A program made the translations under genes and the position numbers. A stretch of 64,000 bases of DNA from a virus (Duplodnaviria; Heunggongvirae; Uroviricota; Caudoviricetes): the IMG/VR virus record IMGVR_UViG_2851938318_000001. One strand, given 5' to 3'. The notes below the pieces were generated by a model. It was not told where the DNA came from. It made no database searches and was given only the letters and a program-made list of their open reading frames with translations. Positions 7,634 through 59,608 of the stretch are shown here, piece after piece (position 1 is the stretch's first letter; the number at the start of each line of letters is the position of its first letter).

Positions 7634-7960
7634 ATGACTAAAAATACTCGTTTTTCCCCCGAAGTCCGTCAGCGGGCGATTCGTATGGTTCTGGAAAGTC
7701 AGGATGAATATGACTCACAGTGGGCGGCAATTTGTTCCATTGCCCCAAAGATTGGCTGTACGCCGGAGACTCTGCGTGTCTGGGTTCGCCAGCATGAGCG
7801 GGATACCGGGGGCGGTGATGGTGGGCTCACCAGCGCTGAACGTCAGCGTCTGAAAGAGCTGGAACGTGAAAATCGTGAACTGCGCCGCAGTAACGATATC
7901 CTTCGCCAGGCTTCCGCTTATTTTGCGAAGGCGGAGTTCGACCGCCTCTGGAAAAAATGA
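7634..7960 (+). CDS. IS3-family transposase OrfA (HTH)
   Basis: 108 aa; A-run at the orfA/orfB overlap consistent with -1 frameshifting. Confidence 0.85.
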
Positions 7961-8847
7961 TGCCACTGCTGGATAAGCTGCGTGAGCAGTACGGGGTCGG
8001 ACCGGTATGCAGCGAACTGCATATTGCCCCGTCAACGTATTACCATTGTCAGCAACAGCGACATCATCCGGATAAACGCAGTGCCCGTGCGCAGCACGAC
8101 GACTGGCTGAAGAGAGAGATACAGCGCGTATACGATGAAAATCATCAGGTGTACGGTGTGCGTAAAGTCTGGCGTCAGTTGTTACGGGAAGGAATCAGGG
8201 TGGCCAGATGTACAGTGGCACGTCTCATGGCGGTTATGGGACTTGCCGGTGTTCTCCGGGGTAAAAAGGTCCGTACGACCATCAGCCGGAAAGCCGTTGC
8301 CGCAGGCGACCGCGTAAACCGTCAGTTCGTGGCAGAACGACCTGACCAGCTGTGGGTGGCTGATTTTACTTACGTCAGCACATGGCAGGGCTTCGTCTAT
8401 GTGGCGTTTATCATTGATGTGTTTGCCGGATACATCGTGGGGTGGCGGGTCTCATCGTCTATGGAAACGACATTCGTGCTGGATGCGCTGGAGCAGGCGT
8501 TGTGGGCCCGTCGTCCGTCTGGCACCATCCATCACAGCGATAAAGGCTCTCAGTATGTGTCACTGGCCTATACGGAGCGACTAAAAGAAGCCGGATTACT
8601 GGCATCAACAGGGAGTACAGGCGACTCGTATGACAACGCGATGGCTGAGAGCATCAATGGTCTTTACAAAGCGGAGGTAATACACCGTAAGAGCTGGAAA
8701 AACCGTGCAGAAGTGGAACTGGCCACACTAACGTGGGTGGACTGGTATAACAATCGACGATTGCTGGGAAGGCTGGGCCATACTCCTCCGGCAGAAGCAG
8801 AAAAAGCTTATTATGCTTCCATCGGAAACGATGATCTGGCAGCCTGA
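7957..8847 (+). CDS. IS3-family transposase OrfB (DDE catalytic domain)
   Basis: 296-aa ORF in the -1 frame relative to OrfA. Confidence 0.85.
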
Positions 8848-9888: not shown

Positions 9889-10056
9889 TGTGTTCCCCTC
9901 ATTTGAGGGGAACTTCGACATCACCAACCACAAACCCTCTCTCCCATCGTATTGTGAAAAAGGATTTGGCGTTCGGTTTCTTCAGTCATTACATCATTAT
10001 TGCTGATATAGATAGGCTCAGCCCCATCGCAGAACAACACGCTGGCTGTTTGTGGT

Positions 10057-10308
10057 TTAATGACGCACCCACTTATCATACAACTCACGATGAACGGCAG
10101 AAGCATCTTTCTGACGTATTTTACTGCTCGTCTCATTCACCACTTTCACTGTGTTTTGAAGTCGTTTTCTGTCTTCCTGTTTTGCCTTCTCTTCCATTGC
10201 TCGTCGCGCCGCATTCCCGCCCATCGTGTAAGCGCCGACAAGAACGAAAAGAACGGCAGCCAGCGTAATCAAAGCAACTTTTAGCTTTGTCATCAGGCTG
10301 CCTAGCAT
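10057..10308 (-). CDS. spanin-like protein (N-terminal transmembrane helix + charged coiled region)
   Basis: 83 aa; TM segment LKVALITLAAVLFVLVGAY followed by KAKQEDRKRLQ-rich region; last gene of the lysis-like cassette. Confidence 0.4.
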   Translation of the reverse strand: MLGSLMTKLKVALITLAAVLFVLVGAYTMGGNAARRAMEEKAKQEDRKRLQNTVKVVNETSSKIRQKDASAVHRELYDKWVRH

Positions 10309-10309
10309 A

Positions 10310-11029
10310 TTAGACCATCCCTTTCTGGTGTTTTCTTACCTGCGACCAGGCAATGAATCCTGCCACAACAATAGTGGCAATACCGAAGATAATGCGTACT
10401 GTATCCCCGCTAGAGATATGACCTTGTGCTTTATCCATAGCAGCGGAAACCTGCGGCATAACATCGGCCAGCTGCGCCAGACCAATACCTGCTGTAACAG
10501 TTGCGCCTGCGGTTTCTTTAGTTACAGGAACAGCCTTCACGGTTTTCACCGGCTTAACAACGCCAGCTCGACGCAGACCTTCCTCAATAACTTCTGCCGC
10601 ATACCAGGTGTTCAGCGTTTTTAGCGGGCCTCGGCCATTCTCGTGGCGAATGATTGCCTCAACCAAAGGTCGAAGGATGTCGTAATCATGCAGATCGATG
10701 ATCATGTCTGCGGTTACACCAACGGCTTTAGACACCTCATTAATGTAGGCGTCAGTATTGTTTTCATTCGGCGGTGCCCAGCGTTCAATAACTTCACGAA
10801 TGGTATCGATACTTGTGCCGTCTTTTGCGCGACGTTTATCGTGGTAGGTAATTAGAGTCACCGCCAGCGCACGAATCCCCCAAACAGGGTCTTTAAACGT
10901 GCAAAAGCGCGGTTCGTCTGGATTCGCAACCAGACCTTGCCACGGTGATCCTTTATCAAGATTACCGGGGTTATTATTACGAATGCCTCTCGGAGTCTTC
11001 ATCCTTGATCTCCTGTTATTGCAGTCCAC
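10310..11029 (-). CDS. candidate endolysin or lysis-module protein with C-terminal membrane anchor
   Basis: 239 aa; conserved-looking N-terminal GIRNNNPGNL...W segment; C-terminal TM helix IIFGIATIVVAGFIAW; sits between holin-like and spanin-like genes. Confidence 0.35.
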   Translation of the reverse strand: MDCNNRRSRMKTPRGIRNNNPGNLDKGSPWQGLVANPDEPRFCTFKDPVWGIRALAVTLITYHDKRRAKDGTSIDTIREVIERWAPPNENNTDAYINEVSKAVGVTADMIIDLHDYDILRPLVEAIIRHENGRGPLKTLNTWYAAEVIEEGLRRAGVVKPVKTVKAVPVTKETAGATVTAGIGLAQLADVMPQVSAAMDKAQGHISSGDTVRIIFGIATIVVAGFIAWSQVRKHQKGMV

Positions 11030-19572: not shown

Positions 19573-20463
19573 TCAGGCTGCCAGATCATCGTTTCCGATG
19601 GAAGCATAATAAGCTTTTTCTGCTTCTGCCGGAGGAGTATGGCCCAGCCTTCCCAGCAATCGTCGATTGTTATACCAGTCCACCCACGTTAGTGTGGCCA
19701 GTTCCACTTCTGCACGGTTTTTCCAGCTCTTACGGTGTATTACCTCCGCTTTGTAAAGACCATTGATGCTCTCAGCCATCGCGTTGTCATACGAGTCGCC
19801 TGTACTCCCTGTTGATGCCAGTAATCCGGCTTCTTTTAGTCGCTCCGTATAGGCCAGTGACACATACTGAGAGCCTTTATCGCTGTGATGGATGGTGCCA
19901 GACGGACGACGGGCCCACAACGCCTGCTCCAGCGCATCCAGCACGAATGTCGTTTCCATAGACGATGAGACCCGCCACCCCACGATGTATCCGGCAAACA
20001 CATCAATGATAAACGCCACATAGACGAAGCCCTGCCATGTGCTGACGTAAGTAAAATCAGCCACCCACAGCTGGTCAGGTCGTTCTGCCACGAACTGACG
20101 GTTTACGCGGTCGCCTGCGGCAACGGCTTTCCGGCTGATGGTCGTACGGACCTTTTTACCCCGGAGAACACCGGCAAGTCCCATAACCGCCATGAGACGT
20201 GCCACTGTACATCTGGCCACCCTGATTCCTTCCCGTAACAACTGACGCCAGACTTTACGCACACCGTACACCTGATGATTTTCATCGTATACGCGCTGTA
20301 TCTCTCTCTTCAGCCAGTCGTCGTGCTGCGCACGGGCACTGCGTTTATCCGGATGATGTCGCTGTTGCTGACAATGGTAATACGTTGACGGGGCAATATG
20401 CAGTTCGCTGCATACCGGTCCGACCCCGTACTGCTCACGCAGCTTATCCAGCAGTGGCATCAT
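19573..20463 (-). CDS. IS3-family transposase OrfB
   Basis: 296-aa ORF identical to the copy-1 OrfB. Confidence 0.85.
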
Positions 20464-20786
20464 TTTTTCCAGAGGCGGTCGAACTCCGCCTTCGCAAAAT
20501 AAGCGGAAGCCTGGCGAAGGATATCGTTACTGCGGCGCAGTTCACGATTTTCACGTTCCAGCTCTTTCAGACGCTGACGTTCAGCGCTGGTGAGCCCACC
20601 ATCACCGCCCCCGGTATCCCGCTCATGCTGGCGAACCCAGACACGCAGAGTCTCCGGCGTACAGCCAATCTTTGGGGCAATGGAACAAATTGCCGCCCAC
20701 TGTGAGTCATATTCATCCTGACTTTCCAGAACCATACGAATCGCCCGCTGACGGACTTCGGGGGAAAAACGAGTATTTTTAGTCAT
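20460..20786 (-). CDS. IS3-family transposase OrfA
   Basis: 108-aa ORF identical to the copy-1 OrfA. Confidence 0.85.
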
Positions 20787-55096: not shown

Positions 55097-57130
55097 TTAC
55101 TTAACCTGGTGGCCAGGTTTAGCACCAGCATCCGGGCTTAACAGGAAGATATCTTTCCCGCCGGGGCCAGCAGCCATCACCATGCCTTCAGAGATACCGA
55201 AGCGCATTTTACGTGGTGCCAGGTTAGCCACCATAATGGTGTGACGACCAATCAGTGCCTGTGGATCTGGATAAGCGGAACGGATGCCTGAGAAGACATT
55301 ACGCTTTTCACCACCGAGATCCAGCGTCAGGCGAAGCAGTTTGTCAGAACCTTCTACAAACTCTGCGTTTTCAATCAGCGCCACGCGCAGGTCAACTTTG
55401 GCGAAGTCGTCAAAGGTGATAGTTTCCTGAATCGGGTCGTCAGCCAGTGGGCCAGTTACCGGTGCGGCTGTGGCTTTCACTTCTTCTTTGGATGCTTCCA
55501 CCAGTGCTTCAACCTGCTTCATATCGATGCGGTTATACAGTGCCTTGAACGGATTCACTTTATGGCCCAGCAGCGGTTGCTGGATACCATCCCAGGTCAG
55601 TTCTGTATTCAGGAATGCTTCTGCACGTTCAGTCAGTTTCGGCAGTACCGGCTTCAGGTACGTCATCAGCACGCGGAACAGGTTAATGCCCATAGAGCAA
55701 ATCGCCTGCAGATCGGCATCGCGTCCTTCCTGCTTCGCCACCACCCACGGAGCCTGTTCATCGACATAGCGGTTAGCCAGGTCAGCCAATGCCATGATTT
55801 CACGGATAGCTTTACCAAATTCGCGGCTTTCCCACGCTTCACCAATCACTTCAGCGGCATCAGTGAAGGTTTTGTACAACTGCGGGTCAGCCAATTCGCT
55901 TGCCAGCACGCCGTCAAAACGCTTGTTGATAAAGCCCGCATTACGAGAGGCCAGGTTAACCACTTTGTTCACGATATCGGCATTCACGCGCTGAACGAAA
56001 TCCTCCAGGTTGAGATCGATATCATCAATGCGCGAAGAGAGTTTCGCAGTGTAGTAGTAACGCAGGCTGTCGGCGTCAAAATGATTCAGCCAGGTGCTGG
56101 CTTTAATAAAGGTGCCGCGAGACTTGGACATCTTCGCGCCGTTCACCGTCACATAGCCGTGAACAAACAGGTTGGTCGGCTTGCGGAAGTTGCTGCCTTC
56201 CAGCATGGCAGGCCAGAACAGGCTGTGGAAGTAAACAATATCTTTACCGATGAAGTGGTACAGCTCGGCGGTGGAGTCTTTCTTCCAGTATTCATCGAAG
56301 CTGGAGGTGTCGCCGCGTTTGTCGCACAGATTCTTGAAGGAACCCATGTAGCCAATCGGCGCGTCCAGCCAGACGTAGAAATATTTGCCCGGTGCGTTCG
56401 GAATTTCAAAACCGAAGTACGGCGCATCGCGGGAGATATCCCACTGTTGCAGACCAGATTCAAACCACTCCTGCATTTTGTTTGCCACCTGCTCCTGCAA
56501 CGCACCGCTGCGGGTCCATGCCTGCAACATTTCGCTGAAAGAAGGCAGATCAAAGAAGAAGTGTTCGGAATCACGCATTACCGGCGTAGCACCAGAAACT
56601 ACCGATTTCGGCTCGATCAGTTCAGTAGGGCTGTATGTCGCGCCGCAGACTTCACAGTTATCGCCGTATTGATCCGGCGCTTTACATTTCGGGCATGTGC
56701 CTTTCACAAAACGGTCCGGCAGGAACATGCCTTTTTCCGGGTCGTACAGCTGAGAGATGGTGCGGTTTTTAATAAAACCGTTCTCTTTCAGGCGAGTATA
56801 GATAAGCTCGGACAACTGACGGTTCTCTTCGCTGTGCGTCGAGTGATAGTTGTCATAGCTGATGTTAAAGCCTGCAAAATCAGTCTGGTGTTCCTGACTC
56901 ATTTCGCCAATCATCTGTTCCGGTGTGATACCAAGCTGCTGTGCTTTCAGCATGATCGGTGTGCCGTGGGCATCGTCGGCACAGATGAAATTAACCTCGT
57001 GGCCGCGCATTCGCTGGTAACGAACCCAGACATCAGCCTGGATGTGCTCCAGCATATGGCCGAGGTGGATTGAGCCGTTAGCGTACGGCAGCGCGCACGT
57101 CACCAGAATTTTCTTCGCGACTTGGGTCAT
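55097..57130 (-). CDS. metG: methionyl-tRNA synthetase
   Basis: 677 aa from [26 protein letters not shown] (HIGH motif), KMSKS motif present; the 720-aa track ORF has an N-terminal extension upstream of the real start. Confidence 0.95.
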
Positions 57131-57287
57131 AGTAGGCATTACTTCTTTGTAGTGAAAAGGGGCTTGATAGTAACAAAATGGCCTTATGTCTGCCATGTGA
57201 TAACAGCATTTCTCATAAATGATTAAATGCCGTAGCTGGAGTACACTACAAGGCGACAATTGCGCAAATTAAAATAAAGGAGACGGG

Positions 57288-58388
57288 ATGAGCGAGTCCA
57301 AATCGCCGGATGCCCTGAGAGCAATGGTAGCCGGTACGCTGGCTAATTTTCAGCACCCAACCCTGAAACACAATCTGACTACGCTTAAAGCGTTACACCA
57401 TGTTGCGTTGATGGATGACACACTGCATGTCGAACTAATCATGCCTTTCGTGTGGAATAAGCCTTTTGAAGACCTGAAAGAGCAATGTAGTGGTGATCTG
57501 CTCCGTATCACTGGCGCAAAGGCTATTGACTGGAAGCTGTCGTACAACATTGCCACGCTTAAGCGCGTCAAAAACCAACCAGGCATTAATGGCGTGAAGA
57601 ACATTATCGCCGTCAGCTCAGGCAAGGGCGGCGTTGGTAAATCCTCCACGGCGGTAAACCTGGCACTGGCGTTGGCTGCTGAAGGTGCGAAAGTTGGTAT
57701 TTTGGATGCCGATATCTACGGGCCATCAATTCCAACCATGCTTGGCGCGGAAAACCAACGTCCAACCTCACCGGACGGTACTCACATGGCACCGATTATG
57801 TCTCATGGACTGGCAACCAATTCAATTGGTTATCTGGTAACTGACGACAATGCGATGGTGTGGCGTGGTCCGATGGCGAGCAAGGCGTTAATGCAGATGT
57901 TGCAGGAAACTCTATGGCCTGATCTGGACTATCTCGTTCTCGATATGCCGCCGGGTACTGGTGATATTCAGCTGACGCTGGCGCAGAACATTCCTGTAAC
58001 TGGTGCTGTTGTGGTAACTACGCCGCAAGATATCGCGCTGATCGATGCGAAGAAAGGCATTGTGATGTTCGAAAAAGTCGAAGTGCCGGTACTGGGTATC
58101 GTCGAAAACATGAGTGTGCATATTTGCAGTAACTGCGGTCATCACGAGCCAATTTTTGGCACCGGTGGCGCACAGAAGCTGGCCGAGAAATACAACACGC
58201 AGTTGTTAGGCCAAATGCCACTTCATATCTCTCTTCGTGAAGATCTGGATAACGGAACACCAACCGTTATTAGTCGTCCAGATAGCGAATTTACGGCTAT
58301 TTATCGTGACCTCGCAGATCGCGTTGCTGCCCAAATGTATTGGCAAGGTGAAGTAATACCTGGCGAAATCGCATTCCGCGCAGTGTGA
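57288..58388 (+). CDS. apbC: iron-sulfur cluster carrier ATPase Mrp/ApbC
   Basis: 366 aa; deviant Walker A SGKGGVGKSS; CxxC near the C-terminus; divergent from metG as in E. coli. Confidence 0.9.
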   Translation: MSESKSPDALRAMVAGTLANFQHPTLKHNLTTLKALHHVALMDDTLHVELIMPFVWNKPFEDLKEQCSGDLLRITGAKAIDWKLSYNIATLKRVKNQPGINGVKNIIAVSSGKGGVGKSSTAVNLALALAAEGAKVGILDADIYGPSIPTMLGAENQRPTSPDGTHMAPIMSHGLATNSIGYLVTDDNAMVWRGPMASKALMQMLQETLWPDLDYLVLDMPPGTGDIQLTLAQNIPVTGAVVVTTPQDIALIDAKKGIVMFEKVEVPVLGIVENMSVHICSNCGHHEPIFGTGGAQKLAEKYNTQLLGQMPLHISLREDLDNGTPTVISRPDSEFTAIYRDLADRVAAQMYWQGEVIPGEIAFRAV

Positions 58389-58425: not shown

Positions 58426-58815
58426 CTACATCACAGGACAATCATCAAACTCGCCACTTCTTGCGTCGTTGATAATGTGAGTGATCACACCAAACACGGC
58501 ATTGCTGCCCGTGCATCCATCATCATCCTTTGGCAATGCTTCCTTCTTACCAGTTCTTAAATCCTCCAGATGCTGACGTGGATACTTCCGGTATCTTTTT
58601 ACGCGATATTCCCCATCCAGAGCACATACAAGAAGAGATCCATCAACAGGAGTGAGTGAGGAATCGACCACCAGCAATGCACCCTGCAATATTCCCTCAC
58701 GATGATGGCTGTCTGCCGCCCTCATGAAGTAGGTCGCTGAAGGATGTCTAATTATCTGCTGATCAAGAGAAATACGGCTCTCAGCATAATCCGCCGCAGG
58801 AGAAGGGAAGCCCAT
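58426..58815 (-). CDS. UmuD'-like S24 peptidase-fold protein (lacks the N-terminal arm and Cys-Gly cleavage site)
   Basis: 129 aa starting MGFPSPAADY, matching the start of processed UmuD'; conserved Ser (AADS) and Lys (YRVKRY); in-frame TAA four codons upstream of the ATG; SD AGAGG. Confidence 0.65.
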   Translation of the reverse strand: MGFPSPAADYAESRISLDQQIIRHPSATYFMRAADSHHREGILQGALLVVDSSLTPVDGSLLVCALDGEYRVKRYRKYPRQHLEDLRTGKKEALPKDDDGCTGSNAVFGVITHIINDARSGEFDDCPVM

Positions 58816-58831
58816 AATACTCGCCTCTTAA

Positions 58832-58851
58832 TACTGTATATACATACAGTA
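58832..58851. promoter_or_regulatory. LexA box (SOS operator)
   Basis: TACTGTATATACATACAGTA: perfect CTGT-N8-ACAG palindrome just upstream of the SD and ATG of the UmuD'-like gene. Confidence 0.75.
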
Positions 58852-59477
58852 TATGTTGAAGCTATATATTTTTGAACTCTATCTCTTAAAAAAGATGTTA
58901 ATAAGATGCTAACTATTGAAAGGCATAAATATATACAATTCCAACAAACGTTATTTTTAACAAATTTTTTCTCTCTGTTGACTTTTGCGAAAGCCTTGTC
59001 TGGCCTAAATTGCGCGGAAGCTACTTTTTCCTTCCTGAGTTATCCACAGAGTTATGCACTTGCATGCATAACCTATACACACTATCTTAATTCGCAAGAC
59101 ACTGATGTTGCGGTATTGAAGGTTCATTGGGTTAAAAATAGACATTAAAAAGCCCAGTTGACTAGGCTGGGCTTTTTAAAAGGAAACAGAGTTTGCGGCT
59201 CTGTTCCTGAGCCATAAGTATCTGGCGACTGAATTAAGATTAACCGAATGTACTGGATTCATCAAGAAACGTTGAGTGGTCATACCAGGTAATAATGACC
59301 ATTTACTAAACATCGTTGTTCTCAAAGAAGATTTAAGTCCAGGTTTTTGGTGACTCTAAAACCTTACCTTAACTCGAAATCGTGCCGTAAGTATCTGGCG
59401 ACTACAGATATTGCAACTGCAAAGGCAAGCCCAAAGGTATTTGCAGCTAGGCGCGATAAAACTAAGTGAGGCCTGTT

Positions 59478-59561
59478 ATGGTTAACTTACTGTTCAAAAT
59501 CGTGCCGCCGATGTTCGCGATTATCAAAGCGATCATTGAGTACGTAAACCAGCGTCCATAA
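59478..59561 (+). CDS. small hydrophobic peptide (27 aa), candidate small membrane protein or type I toxin
   Basis: ATG 59478 with GTGAGG 7 nt upstream; MVNLLFKIVPPMFAIIKAIIEYVNQRP; terminator hairpin after the stop; too short for the ORF track. Confidence 0.35.
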   Translation: MVNLLFKIVPPMFAIIKAIIEYVNQRP

Positions 59562-59574
59562 CGCTAGTTGCTAC

Positions 59575-59608
59575 AGGCCCCATCAAGAGCATGGGGCCTC
59601 TTTATCGT
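59575..59608 (+). terminator. rho-independent terminator
   Basis: Hairpin aggcccca-tcaagagca-tggggcct followed by CTTTAT. Confidence 0.5.

What the first reader, a model, noticed from the sequence alone, without database searches (positions are those of the whole stretch)
59200..59608. Well-formed 27-codon ORF with SD and terminator, preceded by a long leader carrying a 16-bp direct repeat
Seen in sequence: ATG 59478 (GTGAGG 7 nt upstream) encodes MVNLLFKIVPPMFAIIKAIIEYVNQRP and is followed by a strong hairpin terminator (59575..59608). The leader contains two copies of taagtatctggcgact (59217..59232 and 59389..59404). Inference: small membrane peptide genes with structured leaders are often type I toxins or regulatory small proteins; it lies between the SOS-controlled UmuD'-like gene and the prophage early block.
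Basis: partly seen in the sequence, partly recalled or inferred. Interest (0 to 1): 0.4.

Follow-up and report, generated by a model that had tools for sequence, protein, structure and literature searches.

The report
Unannotated sRNA-controlled small toxin module
The 27-codon ORF is a real, conserved gene for a small hydrophobic peptide, and one of the two "leader repeats" is actually the 5' end of an unannotated 84-nt RNA made from the opposite strand that can pair with the other repeat in the peptide's leader: the layout of a type I toxin-antitoxin pair (like zorO/orzO of E. coli), here in a family not found in the databases searched, carried by E. coli phage-plasmids.

Summary
The ORF (ATG 59478, stop 59561), its GAGG and the hairpin 59575-59608 are as described. 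The 16-nt repeat lies at 59215-59230 and 59388-59403, 1-2 nt off the stated positions; 0.03 such matches are expected by chance.

The interpretation needs one correction. Copy 1 is most likely not leader. It templates the 5' end of a minus-strand sRNA (59230 to about 59147). This sRNA has a promoter conserved in all intact relatives (-35, always 17 nt, -10, 6 nt, +1 A), a covarying stem-loop and a terminator. Its first 20 nt pair with the leader at 59384-59403, 75-94 nt upstream of the ATG.

Across 19 distinct relatives, 11 of 23 intermolecular pairs show compensatory changes. Every one-sided change in positions 2-20 is a G.U wobble, and at least four or five specificity alleles exist.

The ORF evolves as coding sequence and belongs to a two-subtype peptide family (26-28 aa, hydrophobic).

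No Rfam, Pfam, NCBIfam, PHROGs or PADLOC family matches, and no record annotates it. The geometry nearly superimposes on zorO/orzO, without detectable homology.

Best reading: an apparently undescribed type I toxin-antitoxin-like family on SSU5-type phage-plasmids. Toxicity, transcripts and the toxin promoter remain untested.

The parts
59147..59230 (-). Predicted 84-nt sRNA (candidate antitoxin). It has a single-stranded 5' seed AGUCGCCAGAUACUUAUGGC, a stem-loop GGAACAGAG/CUCUGUUUCC, and an intrinsic terminator GCCCAG...CUGGGC followed by U5.
   Evidence: MFE -31.2 kcal/mol, z = -5.0 against shuffles. Terminator-like site on the minus strand. The stem-loop and terminator covary in relatives. 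Only sub-threshold Rfam hits: AgrB 27.6 bits against a threshold of 40.
59237..59265 (-). sRNA promoter: -35 TTGATG (59265..59260), 17-nt spacer, -10 TAATCT (59242..59237), 6-nt discriminator, +1 A opposite 59230.
   Evidence: All 17 distinct promoter versions keep TTGAAG/TTGATG/TTGTAG, exactly 17 nt of variable sequence, TAAGCT/TAATCT/TAAGAT, then 6 nt and the seed.
59211..59230 (-). Seed template. This is repeat copy 1 (59215-59230) extended to 20 nt, equal to sRNA nt 1-20.
59384..59403 (+). sRNA target in the 5' leader. This is repeat copy 2 (59388-59403) extended to 20 nt, 75-94 nt upstream of the ATG.
   Evidence: 20 contiguous pairs including one G.U, -38.5 kcal/mol. Intermolecular covariation: 11 of 23 pairs compensatory, 95.7% of cells paired, 0 of 500 shuffles reach the observed values.
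59341..59364 (+). Leader hairpin H1 (AGGUUU/AAACCU).
   Evidence: RNAalifold consensus with compensatory changes.
59380..59456 (+). Leader helix H2: UCGUGCC (59380-59386) pairs with GGCGCGA (59450-59456). It closes a junction that holds H3 and H4, and its 5' strand overlaps the sRNA binding site.
   Evidence: RNAalifold consensus. Seven pairs are kept in 12 sequences with one-sided G.U/A-U changes. In the window an alternative partner, AUCGUGCC, exists inside the ORF at 59497-59504.
59390..59413 (+). Target hairpin H3: stem AGUAUCUG/CAGAUAUU with GCGACUA in the loop, complementary to the sRNA 5' end.
   Evidence: The 3' arm changes together with the seed (GUAUC/GAUAC, GUAUCUG/CAGGUAC, CACUG/CAGUG).
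59417..59446 (+). Leader hairpin H4 (CUGCAAA...UUUGCAG), invariant in all relatives.
   Evidence: It served as the search anchor.
59466..59471 (+). Shine-Dalgarno region GTGAGG (GAGG at 59468-59471).
   Evidence: A purine-rich SD is kept in relatives. It is predicted to pair with CUUAC at 59487-59491 in the window's MFE fold.
59478..59561 (+). 27-codon ORF (candidate toxin, subtype B): MVNLLFKIVPPMFAIIKAIIEYVNQRP.
   Evidence: Variable columns by codon position are 15/6/22. The in-frame synonymous fraction is 46% against 18% and 10% in the other frames. ATG is replaced by GTG in some variants. Best 19-aa Kyte-Doolittle window is 1.85. Profile match to subtype A has E = 2e-6.
59575..59608 (+). 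Intrinsic terminator of the peptide mRNA.
   Evidence: A GC-rich hairpin plus T-run follows the last small ORF in every relative, with different stem sequences.
59060..59088 (+). Conserved promoter P2 (TTGCAT, 17 nt, TATCTT) pointing into the sRNA terminator. Its relation to the module is unresolved: a convergent transcript or a long toxin leader.
   Evidence: The position is conserved in all lineages (others have TTGTAC-16-TAGAAT or TTGAAC-16-TACAAT) while spacer and downstream sequence vary. No complementarity to other window sequence.

Best explanation
This is a type I toxin-antitoxin-like module with the divergent, short-complementarity layout of zorO/orzO, tisB/istR-1 and shoB/ohsC.

A plus-strand mRNA carries a structured 5' leader of roughly 140-180 nt. 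It encodes a 27-aa hydrophobic peptide (59478-59561) and ends at the terminator 59575-59608. An 84-nt sRNA is transcribed from the minus strand (59230 to about 59147) from its own promoter.

The sRNA's single-stranded 5' end (AGUCGCC...) first meets the GCGACU loop of leader hairpin H3. [quoted passage not shown] This opens H3 and the closing helix H2.

By analogy with OrzO and IstR-1, the duplex blocks ribosome loading (standby site or remodelling of the leader), or creates an RNase III substrate, or both. Either way the peptide is not made while the sRNA is present.

The peptide is inferred to insert into the inner membrane and to be harmful when made. On a low-copy phage-plasmid, the most likely pay-off is post-segregational killing (maintenance) or exclusion of competitors.

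Shown computationally: the coding status of the ORF, the sRNA gene signals, the base-pairing and its covariation, and the leader helices.

Inferred: transcription itself, repression, RNase III or standby involvement, toxicity, and biological role.
For: (1) Pairing. On 19 distinct sRNA-plus-target combinations, the intermolecular helix has 23 pairs and 11 show changes on both sides. 95.7% of cells are paired, against 32-39% when the partner is slid by 1-3 columns. 0 of 500 shuffles reach the observed values.

(2) Direction. In positions 2-20 there are 20 cells where the two repeat copies differ. All are U.G or G.U, provided the RNA is the antisense of copy 1 and the target is the sense of copy 2. 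None is a mismatch. In the opposite orientation they would all be A.C.

(3) Whole seeds are swapped in both copies at once: AAGUAUCU, AAUGUAUCU, GUUGUUAACC, GUAAAACAC, and GGCAGC or GGCUAC. The 3' arm of the target hairpin follows suit.

(4) sRNA gene signals. The -35, 17 nt, -10, 6 nt, +1 arrangement is invariant while the spacer sequence varies. The terminator is always functional in the minus orientation. The fold has z = -5.0.

(5) The ORF is coding. Codon-position variability is 15/6/22 for subtype B and 9/4/15 for subtype A. Synonymous changes are enriched only in frame. Among E. coli variants I count 7 synonymous against 3 non-synonymous sites, and ATG becomes GTG. Subtypes A and B are colinear paralogues (hhalign E = 2e-6).

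(6) Hydrophobic segments score 1.85-2.26.

(7) Geometry matches zorO/orzO. There the complementarity is 18 nt at the sRNA 5' end, 73-91 nt upstream of the start, with a 29-aa toxin. In the E. coli Nissle zor/orz locus the repeat spacing is 166 nt, against 173 here, and the target ends 80 nt from the ATG, against 75 here.

(8) In one decayed locus (L175) a deletion between the two repeat copies removed both promoters. Its ORF carries an in-frame TAG.

(9) Carriers are mostly non-mobilizable 85-135-kb phage-plasmids, and in Citrobacter the module sits next to the replication genes.
Against: No transcript, translation or toxicity data exist.

The toxin promoter is not identified in the window. 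Most relatives have a weak sigma-70-like pair at a 17-nt spacing just upstream of H1, but the window has 24 nt there. The consensus scan finds none.

The peptide is less hydrophobic than TisB, DinQ, ZorO or ShoB. It has Lys residues and Pro-Pro in the middle of its hydrophobic stretch (the comparison sequences are from memory, except ZorO, which was read).

One short metagenomic contig (L180) has leader plus intact ORF but no recognisable sRNA gene.

Covariation between two direct DNA repeats could in principle also come from gene conversion. Only the wobble asymmetry and the third covarying arm argue specifically for RNA pairing.
Confidence: 0.7

Rival explanations
1. The sRNA and its pairing with the leader are real, but the peptide is not a toxin. 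It would be a small membrane protein with a regulatory or phage-related job, such as superinfection exclusion, modulation of a transporter, or lysis timing. The sRNA would simply tune its level.
For: Moderate hydrophobicity, with conserved K7, P10, Y22 and N24, suggests a specific interaction surface rather than a generic pore-former. An orphan ORF without the sRNA exists (L180). No known toxin family matches.
Against: The whole architecture matches the divergent type I systems: tight repression far upstream, a structured RBS, a dedicated neighbouring sRNA with diversifying specificity, tandem paralogues, and carriage on plasmids and prophages. The decayed locus lost both regulation and the ORF.
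Confidence: 0.2
2. The peptide mRNA starts at the conserved upstream promoter P2 (59060-59088), so both repeat copies lie in one long leader. The sRNA would then be a true cis-antisense RNA over copy 1 that additionally pairs with copy 2.
For: P2 is the only well-conserved plus-strand promoter in the module. In the Citrobacter and Enterobacter lineages the sRNA terminator has no T-run in the plus orientation, so read-through is plausible. No convincing promoter lies between the sRNA gene and H1 in the window.
Against: In the window and all E. coli-type loci the hairpin is a symmetric A5-stem-T5 terminator that should stop most P2 transcripts at about 59177. The sequence between P2 and the terminator is poorly conserved and variable in length. 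Most relatives do have a -35/-10-like pair at fixed spacing just upstream of H1.
Confidence: 0.15
3. The two repeat copies are DNA-level elements, such as operators or iteron-like binding sites for a protein, or recombination sites, and no sRNA-mRNA pairing occurs.
For: They are direct repeats and are kept identical or nearly so. A deletion between them has occurred in L175. In some plasmids the module lies next to an iteron origin.
Against: All 20 differing cells are transitions in the one direction that gives G.U in the proposed RNA duplex. A third element, the 3' arm of hairpin H3, covaries with them. Copy 1 sits exactly at +1 of a conserved promoter and upstream of a conserved stem-loop and terminator. 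A protein site would not need seeds that differ completely between lineages.
Confidence: 0.03
4. The ORF is a chance reading frame in a non-coding leader or sRNA region.
For: 27-codon ORFs are common. No annotation pipeline calls this one.
Against: Codon-position substitution pattern, frame-specific synonymous excess, conserved length, SD and start, a start-codon swap from ATG to GTG, and full-length profile similarity between two paralogous subtypes.
Confidence: 0.03

Closest known systems
zorO/orzO (and zorP/orzP) type I toxin-antitoxin loci of E. coli/Shigella (Fozo 2010, PMC2887945; Wen 2014, PMC3919570)
   Same: The sRNA gene is divergent and next to the toxin gene. The seed lies at the very 5' end of a roughly 80-nt sRNA that ends in an intrinsic terminator. 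[quoted passage not shown] The toxin is a 29-aa (here 27-aa) hydrophobic peptide followed by a terminator. Repeat spacing is 166 against 173 nt. A variable stretch inside the seed sets specificity between paralogous pairs, like the V1 region.
   Different: No detectable homology. The Rfam OrzO-P model gives no hit on the window and 34.2 bits (threshold 60) on one relative. nhmmer of the module profile against the zor/orz locus finds only a terminator-like 2.7-bit match. BLASTP of ZorO against the peptide finds nothing. The present family lives on phage-plasmids and prophages rather than at a fixed chromosomal site. It can carry two different tandem ORFs behind one leader, and it has an extra conserved upstream promoter block.
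tisB/istR-1 (E. coli)
   Same: A divergent sRNA whose 5' part pairs about 20 nt far upstream of a structurally closed RBS. Standby-site occlusion is the model mechanism (summarised in PMC3919570).
   Different: tisB is LexA-controlled. Here the only LexA box (58832-58851) belongs to the humD-like gene, and the module occurs without it. There is no Rfam IstR hit and no TisB protein family hit.
dinQ/agrB (E. coli)
   Same: A small (27-aa active form, from memory) membrane peptide and a divergent sRNA with a repeat shared between the sRNA gene and the toxin leader. AgrB is the best, but sub-threshold, Rfam hit for the window sRNA.
   Different: AgrB scores 27.6 bits against a gathering score of 40, and the match rests on the stem-loop plus terminator shape. 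There is no LexA box at the peptide promoter and no protein similarity.
hok/sok plasmid addiction systems
   Same: Plasmid-borne, sRNA-repressed small membrane toxin. The probable role is post-segregational killing.
   Different: Hok is about 50 aa and is translated through an overlapping mok frame, and Sok is cis-antisense. None of these features is present here, and no sok or Hok model matches the module.

Membership tests
Type I toxin-antitoxin systems (class, as defined in PMC2887945 and PMC3919570) | Small (<60 aa) hydrophobic protein | tested here: met
   27 aa. The best 19-aa Kyte-Doolittle window is 1.85 (subtype A relatives 2.26). The C-terminus is polar. The ORF is under coding selection.
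Type I toxin-antitoxin systems (class, as defined in PMC2887945 and PMC3919570) | sRNA encoded at the same locus with complementarity to the toxin mRNA | tested here: met
   A predicted 84-nt minus-strand sRNA with a conserved promoter and terminator. A 20-bp duplex with the leader. Covariation in 11 of 23 pairs, with differences being wobble only. Transcription itself was not observed.
Type I toxin-antitoxin systems (class, as defined in PMC2887945 and PMC3919570) | Protein is toxic when overproduced | not testable with these tools
   Only indirect evidence: the decayed locus L175 lost its promoters and has a stop codon in the ORF.
Type I toxin-antitoxin systems (class, as defined in PMC2887945 and PMC3919570) | sRNA represses toxin synthesis | not testable with these tools
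   Inferred from pairing, covariation and analogy with OrzO and IstR-1.
zor/orz family | sRNA matches the Rfam OrzO-P covariance model (RF02083) at its gathering score | tested here: not met
   No hit at E<=1 on the window. 34.2 bits against 60 on relative L004.
zor/orz family | Toxin homologous to ZorO/ZorP | tested here: not met
   BLASTP finds no alignment at E<=100. nhmmer of the module profile against the zor/orz locus gives only a 2.7-bit terminator match.
zor/orz family | [quoted passage not shown] | tested here: met
   20 nt, 75-94 nt upstream, compared with 18 nt and 73-91 nt for zorO.
dinQ/agrB | sRNA matches Rfam AgrB (RF02891) at its gathering score | tested here: not met
   27.6 bits against 40; 15.2 bits on L004.
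dinQ/agrB and tisB/istR-1 | LexA operator at the toxin promoter (SOS induction) | tested here: not met
   The only consensus LexA box (58832-58851) abuts the humD-like gene, about 450 nt upstream of leader hairpin H1. Relatives without that gene keep the module.
hok/sok | Hok-family protein (Pfam or NCBIfam model) and sok RNA (RF01794) | tested here: not met
   No protein family hit at E<=10. No sok hit in the module.

The most novel reading that the evidence does not exclude
The module is a three-RNA circuit rather than a two-part system. The conserved promoter P2 (59060-59088) drives a transcript that converges on the sRNA gene. This transcript would interfere with sRNA transcription or base-pair with the sRNA as an anti-antitoxin (or be attenuated at the bidirectional terminator in the E. 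coli type). The peptide would then be released only when P2 fires, for example on phage-plasmid induction or loss of a repressor. The diversified seed/target alleles would act as immunity or incompatibility barcodes among co-resident phage-plasmids.
Probability: 0.12. Interest if true: 0.7.

Novelty: new member of a known kind. Interest (0 to 1): 0.5.

Why it matters
Type I toxin-antitoxin systems are notoriously missed by annotation, and here none of about 230 matching E. coli records annotates either gene. [quoted passage not shown]

It would also be a case that lives on phage-plasmids. SSU5-type IncFIB elements are common in clinical and livestock E. coli, Shigella, Citrobacter and Enterobacter, so it is a candidate addiction or exclusion function for them.

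The natural allelic series is a ready-made data set on how sRNA-target specificity evolves and how cross-talk is avoided. It comprises at least four or five seed/target specificities, with a third covarying hairpin arm.

The close geometric match to zor/orz without sequence similarity points either to very old common ancestry or to convergence on one workable design for repression from 75-90 nt upstream.

Tried and rejected
(1) Homology searches for the peptides found nothing, apart from one 0.16 E-value PHROG of unknown function. Libraries searched: Pfam, NCBIfam, PHROGs, PADLOC and a PDB profile. The search for homologous proteins refuses queries under 40 aa. An exhaustive phmmer of the 31-aa form against 1.84 billion representatives found only itself and one 56-aa protein. 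An exact look-up finds only 'hypothetical' entries.

(2) Rfam gave only sub-threshold hits (AgrB, RNAI, OrzO-P), driven by the stem-loop plus terminator shape.

(3) A loose two-copy DNA pattern scan of viral contigs returned only chance matches, verified with nhmmer.

(4) Literature searches for the peptide or seed strings, and for type I systems on phage-plasmids, found no description.

(5) Attempts to pin down the peptide promoter failed. The consensus scanner finds none. Manual alignment gives a weak -35/-10 pair at 17 nt in most lineages, but 24 nt in the window. TTGAGT (59272) with TAATGA/AATAAT has a 13-15-nt spacer. This is left unresolved.

(6) Idea tested: GGCGCGA (59450-59456) toggles between the leader partner and an identical AUCGUGCC inside the ORF (59497-59504), acting as an sRNA-driven switch. 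The ORF partner carries a central mismatch in most relatives, whereas the leader partner is conserved. The switch is therefore not supported family-wide.

(7) The P2 transcript was tested as a regulator of the peptide mRNA, the sRNA or other window genes. Its duplex energy lies within the shuffle distribution and there is no complementarity of 11 nt or more.

(8) SOS control of the module was rejected, for the reasons given in the membership test.
Full report
**Observation.** An ORF runs from ATG 59478 to TAA 59559-59561 and encodes MVNLLFKIVPPMFAIIKAIIEYVNQRP. GTGAGG lies at 59466-59471, and a 9-bp hairpin at 59575-59599 carries a T-rich tail. The 16-mer TAAGTATCTGGCGACT occurs exactly twice in the 64-kb window, at 59215-59230 and 59388-59403. 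That is 2 and 1 nt lower than reported. Shuffles expect 0.03 matches. The flanks are an S24/HumD-type gene (58426-58815, minus strand), with a consensus LexA box at 58832-58851, and lambdoid early-type genes from 59617 on the minus strand.

**Where it occurs.** The roughly 800-bp gap between these genes is unannotated in every record inspected.
- The segment 59130-59620 is present in 114 of 5,426 complete E. coli genomes: 105 places on plasmids of about 90-135 kb and 10 on chromosomes.
- It is present in plasmids of Escherichia, Shigella, Citrobacter, Klebsiella, Enterobacter and Kosakonia. 92 of 97 are typed non-mobilizable.
- It is also present in the deposited phages Cyrano and CMS-2020a.
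- These carriers are IncFIB phage-plasmids of the SSU5 super-community.
- In one chromosomal lambdoid prophage the module travels with a truncated piece of the S24 gene.
- In Citrobacter and Enterobacter plasmids it sits in other contexts, once directly beside the RepB iteron origin.

DNA pattern scans anchored on an invariant leader hairpin, followed by an nhmmer profile, gave 43 distinct versions of the module. Several of these are strongly diverged.

**The ORF is a gene.** Among the 91-97% identical E. coli variants I count seven synonymous third-position changes and three conservative replacements (V2L, I8V, K17E). In two variants the start codon changes from ATG to GTG.
- Across 14 distinct 84-nt subtype-B genes, the variable columns fall 15/6/22 on codon positions 1/2/3. 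46% of pairwise codon differences are synonymous in frame, against 18% and 10% in the other two frames.
- Subtype A behaves the same way, at 9/4/15.
- Relatives carry subtype B alone (the window), subtype A alone (for example MFLLLLKLAHPVAVIIMTLLEYWKDR), or A followed by B, each with its own SD. A terminator always follows.
- The two subtypes align over their full length in a profile-profile comparison (89% probability, E = 2e-6).
- M1, L4, K7, P10, I15, Y22 and N24 are invariant in subtype B.
- The peptides have a hydrophobic core (best 19-aa Kyte-Doolittle window 1.85-2.26) and a polar C-terminus.

**Copy 1 belongs to a minus-strand sRNA gene.** On the minus strand, copy 1 is preceded by TTGATG (59265..59260), 17 nt, TAATCT (59242..59237), 6 nt, and then A opposite 59230.
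- All 17 distinct promoter versions keep a TTGAAG-like -35, exactly 17 nt of variable sequence, TAAGCT/TAATCT/TAAGAT, and 6 variable nt before the seed.
- Downstream on that strand come a stem-loop whose arms covary (CAGAG/CUCUG, UUGAG/CUCAA, GGAG/CUCC, AAGAG/CUCUU) and a GC-rich hairpin. That hairpin has a U-run in the minus orientation in every lineage.
- The 84-nt RNA (59230 to 59147) folds at -31.2 kcal/mol, z = -5.0. Its first nucleotides are unpaired.

**Pairing with the leader.** The first 20 nt of this RNA pair without interruption, with one G.U, to 59384-59403 in the leader, at -38.5 kcal/mol. In relatives the duplex is 20-25 bp and -38 to -49 kcal/mol. I concatenated the sRNA and target of 19 distinct loci (alignment A1) and counted a 23-pair intermolecular helix.
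- 95.7% of cells are paired, against 32-39% when the partner is slid.
- 11 pairs have changes on both sides.
- 0 of 500 shuffles reach the observed values.
- Whole seeds differ between lineages yet are identical in both copies: AAGUAUCU in the window, AAUGUAUCU, GUUGUUAACC, GUAAAACAC, and GGCAGC or GGCUAC in place of GGCGAC.
- Where the two copies differ inside positions 2-20 (20 cells), the difference is always A in copy 1 against G in copy 2, or C against T. That gives U.G or G.U only if the RNA is the antisense of copy 1 and the target is the sense of copy 2. The reverse assignment would give A.C mismatches.

This asymmetry argues for RNA-RNA pairing rather than a pair of protein sites kept alike by conversion. 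So does the fact that the 3' arm of the target hairpin changes along with the seed.

Cognate pairs have 20-24 contiguous base pairs. The window sRNA has at most 13 with any other group, and the L189 and L197 types have at most 9 with the rest. For OrzO, 15 contiguous pairs are needed. So at least four or five mutually orthogonal specificities exist.

**Leader anatomy.** RNAalifold on 12 diverse leaders gives four helices:
- H1 (59341-59364), which covaries.
- H2, the closing helix: UCGUGCC 59380-59386 with GGCGCGA 59450-59456.
- H3 (59390-59413), the target hairpin, which presents GCGACU in its loop to the sRNA 5' end AGUCGC.
- H4 (59417-59446), which is invariant.

sRNA binding must open H3 and the 5' strand of H2. 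In the window's own MFE fold, the SD pairs with codons 3-5, and GGCGCGAU pairs with an identical AUCGUGCC inside the ORF. That second partner is imperfect in most relatives, so I do not rely on it.

The site of pairing is 75-94 nt upstream of the start. This is essentially the geometry reported for zorO (73-91 nt, 18 nt of complementarity, the 5' end of OrzO sufficient, RNase III required). It is also the standby-site arrangement of tisB.

**Comparison with known systems.** I fetched the zor/orz locus of E. coli Nissle. It has the same order of parts:
- terminator, sRNA body, repeat copy 1, divergent promoters, repeat copy 2, SD, a 29-codon ORF, and a terminator;
- 166 nt between copies, against 173 here;
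- 80 nt from target to ATG, against 75 here.

Sequence homology is nonetheless not detectable.
- The module profile finds only a 2.7-bit terminator-like match.
- ZorO and the window peptide give no BLASTP alignment.
- Rfam OrzO-P scores 34.2 bits against a threshold of 60 on one relative and nothing on the window, whose best hit is AgrB at 27.6 against 40.
- No protein library has a family for the peptides.
- The exact sequences exist in public collections only as 'hypothetical protein'.
- An exhaustive search of 1.84 billion representatives found two proteins.
- Literature searches for the sequences, or for such a system on phage-plasmids, found nothing.

[quoted passage not shown] It is not a member of zor/orz, dinQ/agrB, tisB/istR or hok/sok.

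**What remains open.** Nothing here shows transcription, repression or toxicity.
- The only hint of harm is a decayed locus (L175). There, recombination between the two copies removed both promoters, and the ORF has an in-frame stop.
- An orphan leader plus ORF without an sRNA gene (L180) cuts the other way.
- The peptide promoter is unresolved in the window.
- A well-conserved plus-strand promoter, P2 (59060-59088), points into the sRNA terminator. In the E. coli type that hairpin is a symmetric A5-stem-T5 terminator, so P2 should give an RNA of about 85 nt. In other lineages it lacks a plus-strand T-run, so P2 transcripts may read antisense through the sRNA gene or even form a long peptide leader. 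Its 5' part has no significant complementarity to anything in the window.
- The LexA box belongs to the humD-like gene and is not part of the module.

**Verdict.** It is most likely an undescribed type I toxin-antitoxin-like family on phage-plasmids, with strong comparative support for the RNA-RNA interaction. It is of moderate interest to specialists and directly testable.

Noticed in passing
window 59060-59088 (+), transcript about 59096-59177: A conserved sigma-70-like promoter P2 (TTGCAT, 17 nt, TATCTT; TTGTAC-16-TAGAAT in other lineages) points into the sRNA terminator. It would give a convergent RNA of about 85 nt in the E. coli type, or a read-through antisense or long leader elsewhere. 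Its function is unknown.
   Followed up: partly
window 58935-59000 (+): A further conserved block upstream of P2: a T-run followed by TTGAC (about 58975-58983) and CCAGGCCTTATAAGACGCGC-like sequence in relatives. The spacing to any -10-like element is not conserved, and no ORF is present. Its role is unknown.
   Followed up: partly
window 59548..59520 (-): A promoter-like site inside the small ORF on the opposite strand (TTTACG, 17 nt, GATAAT). It is built from the conserved Y-V-N and I-I codons. Equivalent sites occur in other subtype-B ORFs and in a subtype-A ORF (L003 2882..2853). It could be a cis-antisense promoter or a by-product of codon choice.
   Followed up: partly
window 59278-59300 (+): An inverted repeat GGTCAT-N11-ATGACC lies between the sRNA promoter and the leader. 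It shows a compensatory change in variant L007 (AGTCAT..ATGACT). It is specific to the E. coli-type module and could be an operator or an RNA hairpin.
   Followed up: no
L175 (metagenome contig Ga0209281_1000619), about 9989-10313: A decayed copy of the module. Repeat copy 1 is fused directly to the sequence downstream of copy 2, a deletion that removes both promoters. The sRNA terminator is degenerate and the ORF has an in-frame TAG at codon 21.
   Followed up: yes
L180 (metagenome contig OLHG01029296.1): Leader plus intact ORF (MVNLIIKIVPAMIVIIEAIFEYVNQRP, with PP changed to PA), but the position of the sRNA gene is occupied by what looks like coding sequence. This is a possible orphan toxin.
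   Followed up: partly
window 55097-58388: Full-length copies of the housekeeping genes metG (methionine-tRNA ligase) and apbC/mrp are carried on the phage-plasmid next to the module. The arrangement is identical to pRM9131-1. In the E. coli chromosome, metG lies a few kb from the zor/orz site (yehI-yehL); that placement is from memory of the K-12 map.
   Followed up: no
window 7915-8031 (+) and 20389-20505 (-): Two identical ALIL pseudoknot matches (IS3-family frameshift signals, 121.5 bits each) in inverted orientation, about 12.5 kb apart. This is a possible composite transposon.
   Followed up: no
L026/L198-type loci, about 50-60 nt upstream of the sRNA terminator: A perfect 16-bp palindrome CCACTACATGTAGTGG (variants ACTACATGTAGT, CTATATGTAG) lies downstream of P2 in the non-E. 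coli lineages. It is absent from the window.
   Followed up: no
L003 2214-2233 and L006 1997-2015: Degenerate LexA-box-like sequences (CTGTGCATACATACAC, CTGTACATACATACAA) at the left edge of the module in Citrobacter plasmids that lack the S24 gene there. They may be remnants of the humD promoter region.
   Followed up: no
L014 (JAEWTL010000044.1, labelled 'MAG: Bacillota bacterium'): This contig carries a module identical to that of E. coli plasmid pTB212 (L007). The likely cause is a binning or contamination artefact rather than presence in Bacillota.
   Followed up: no
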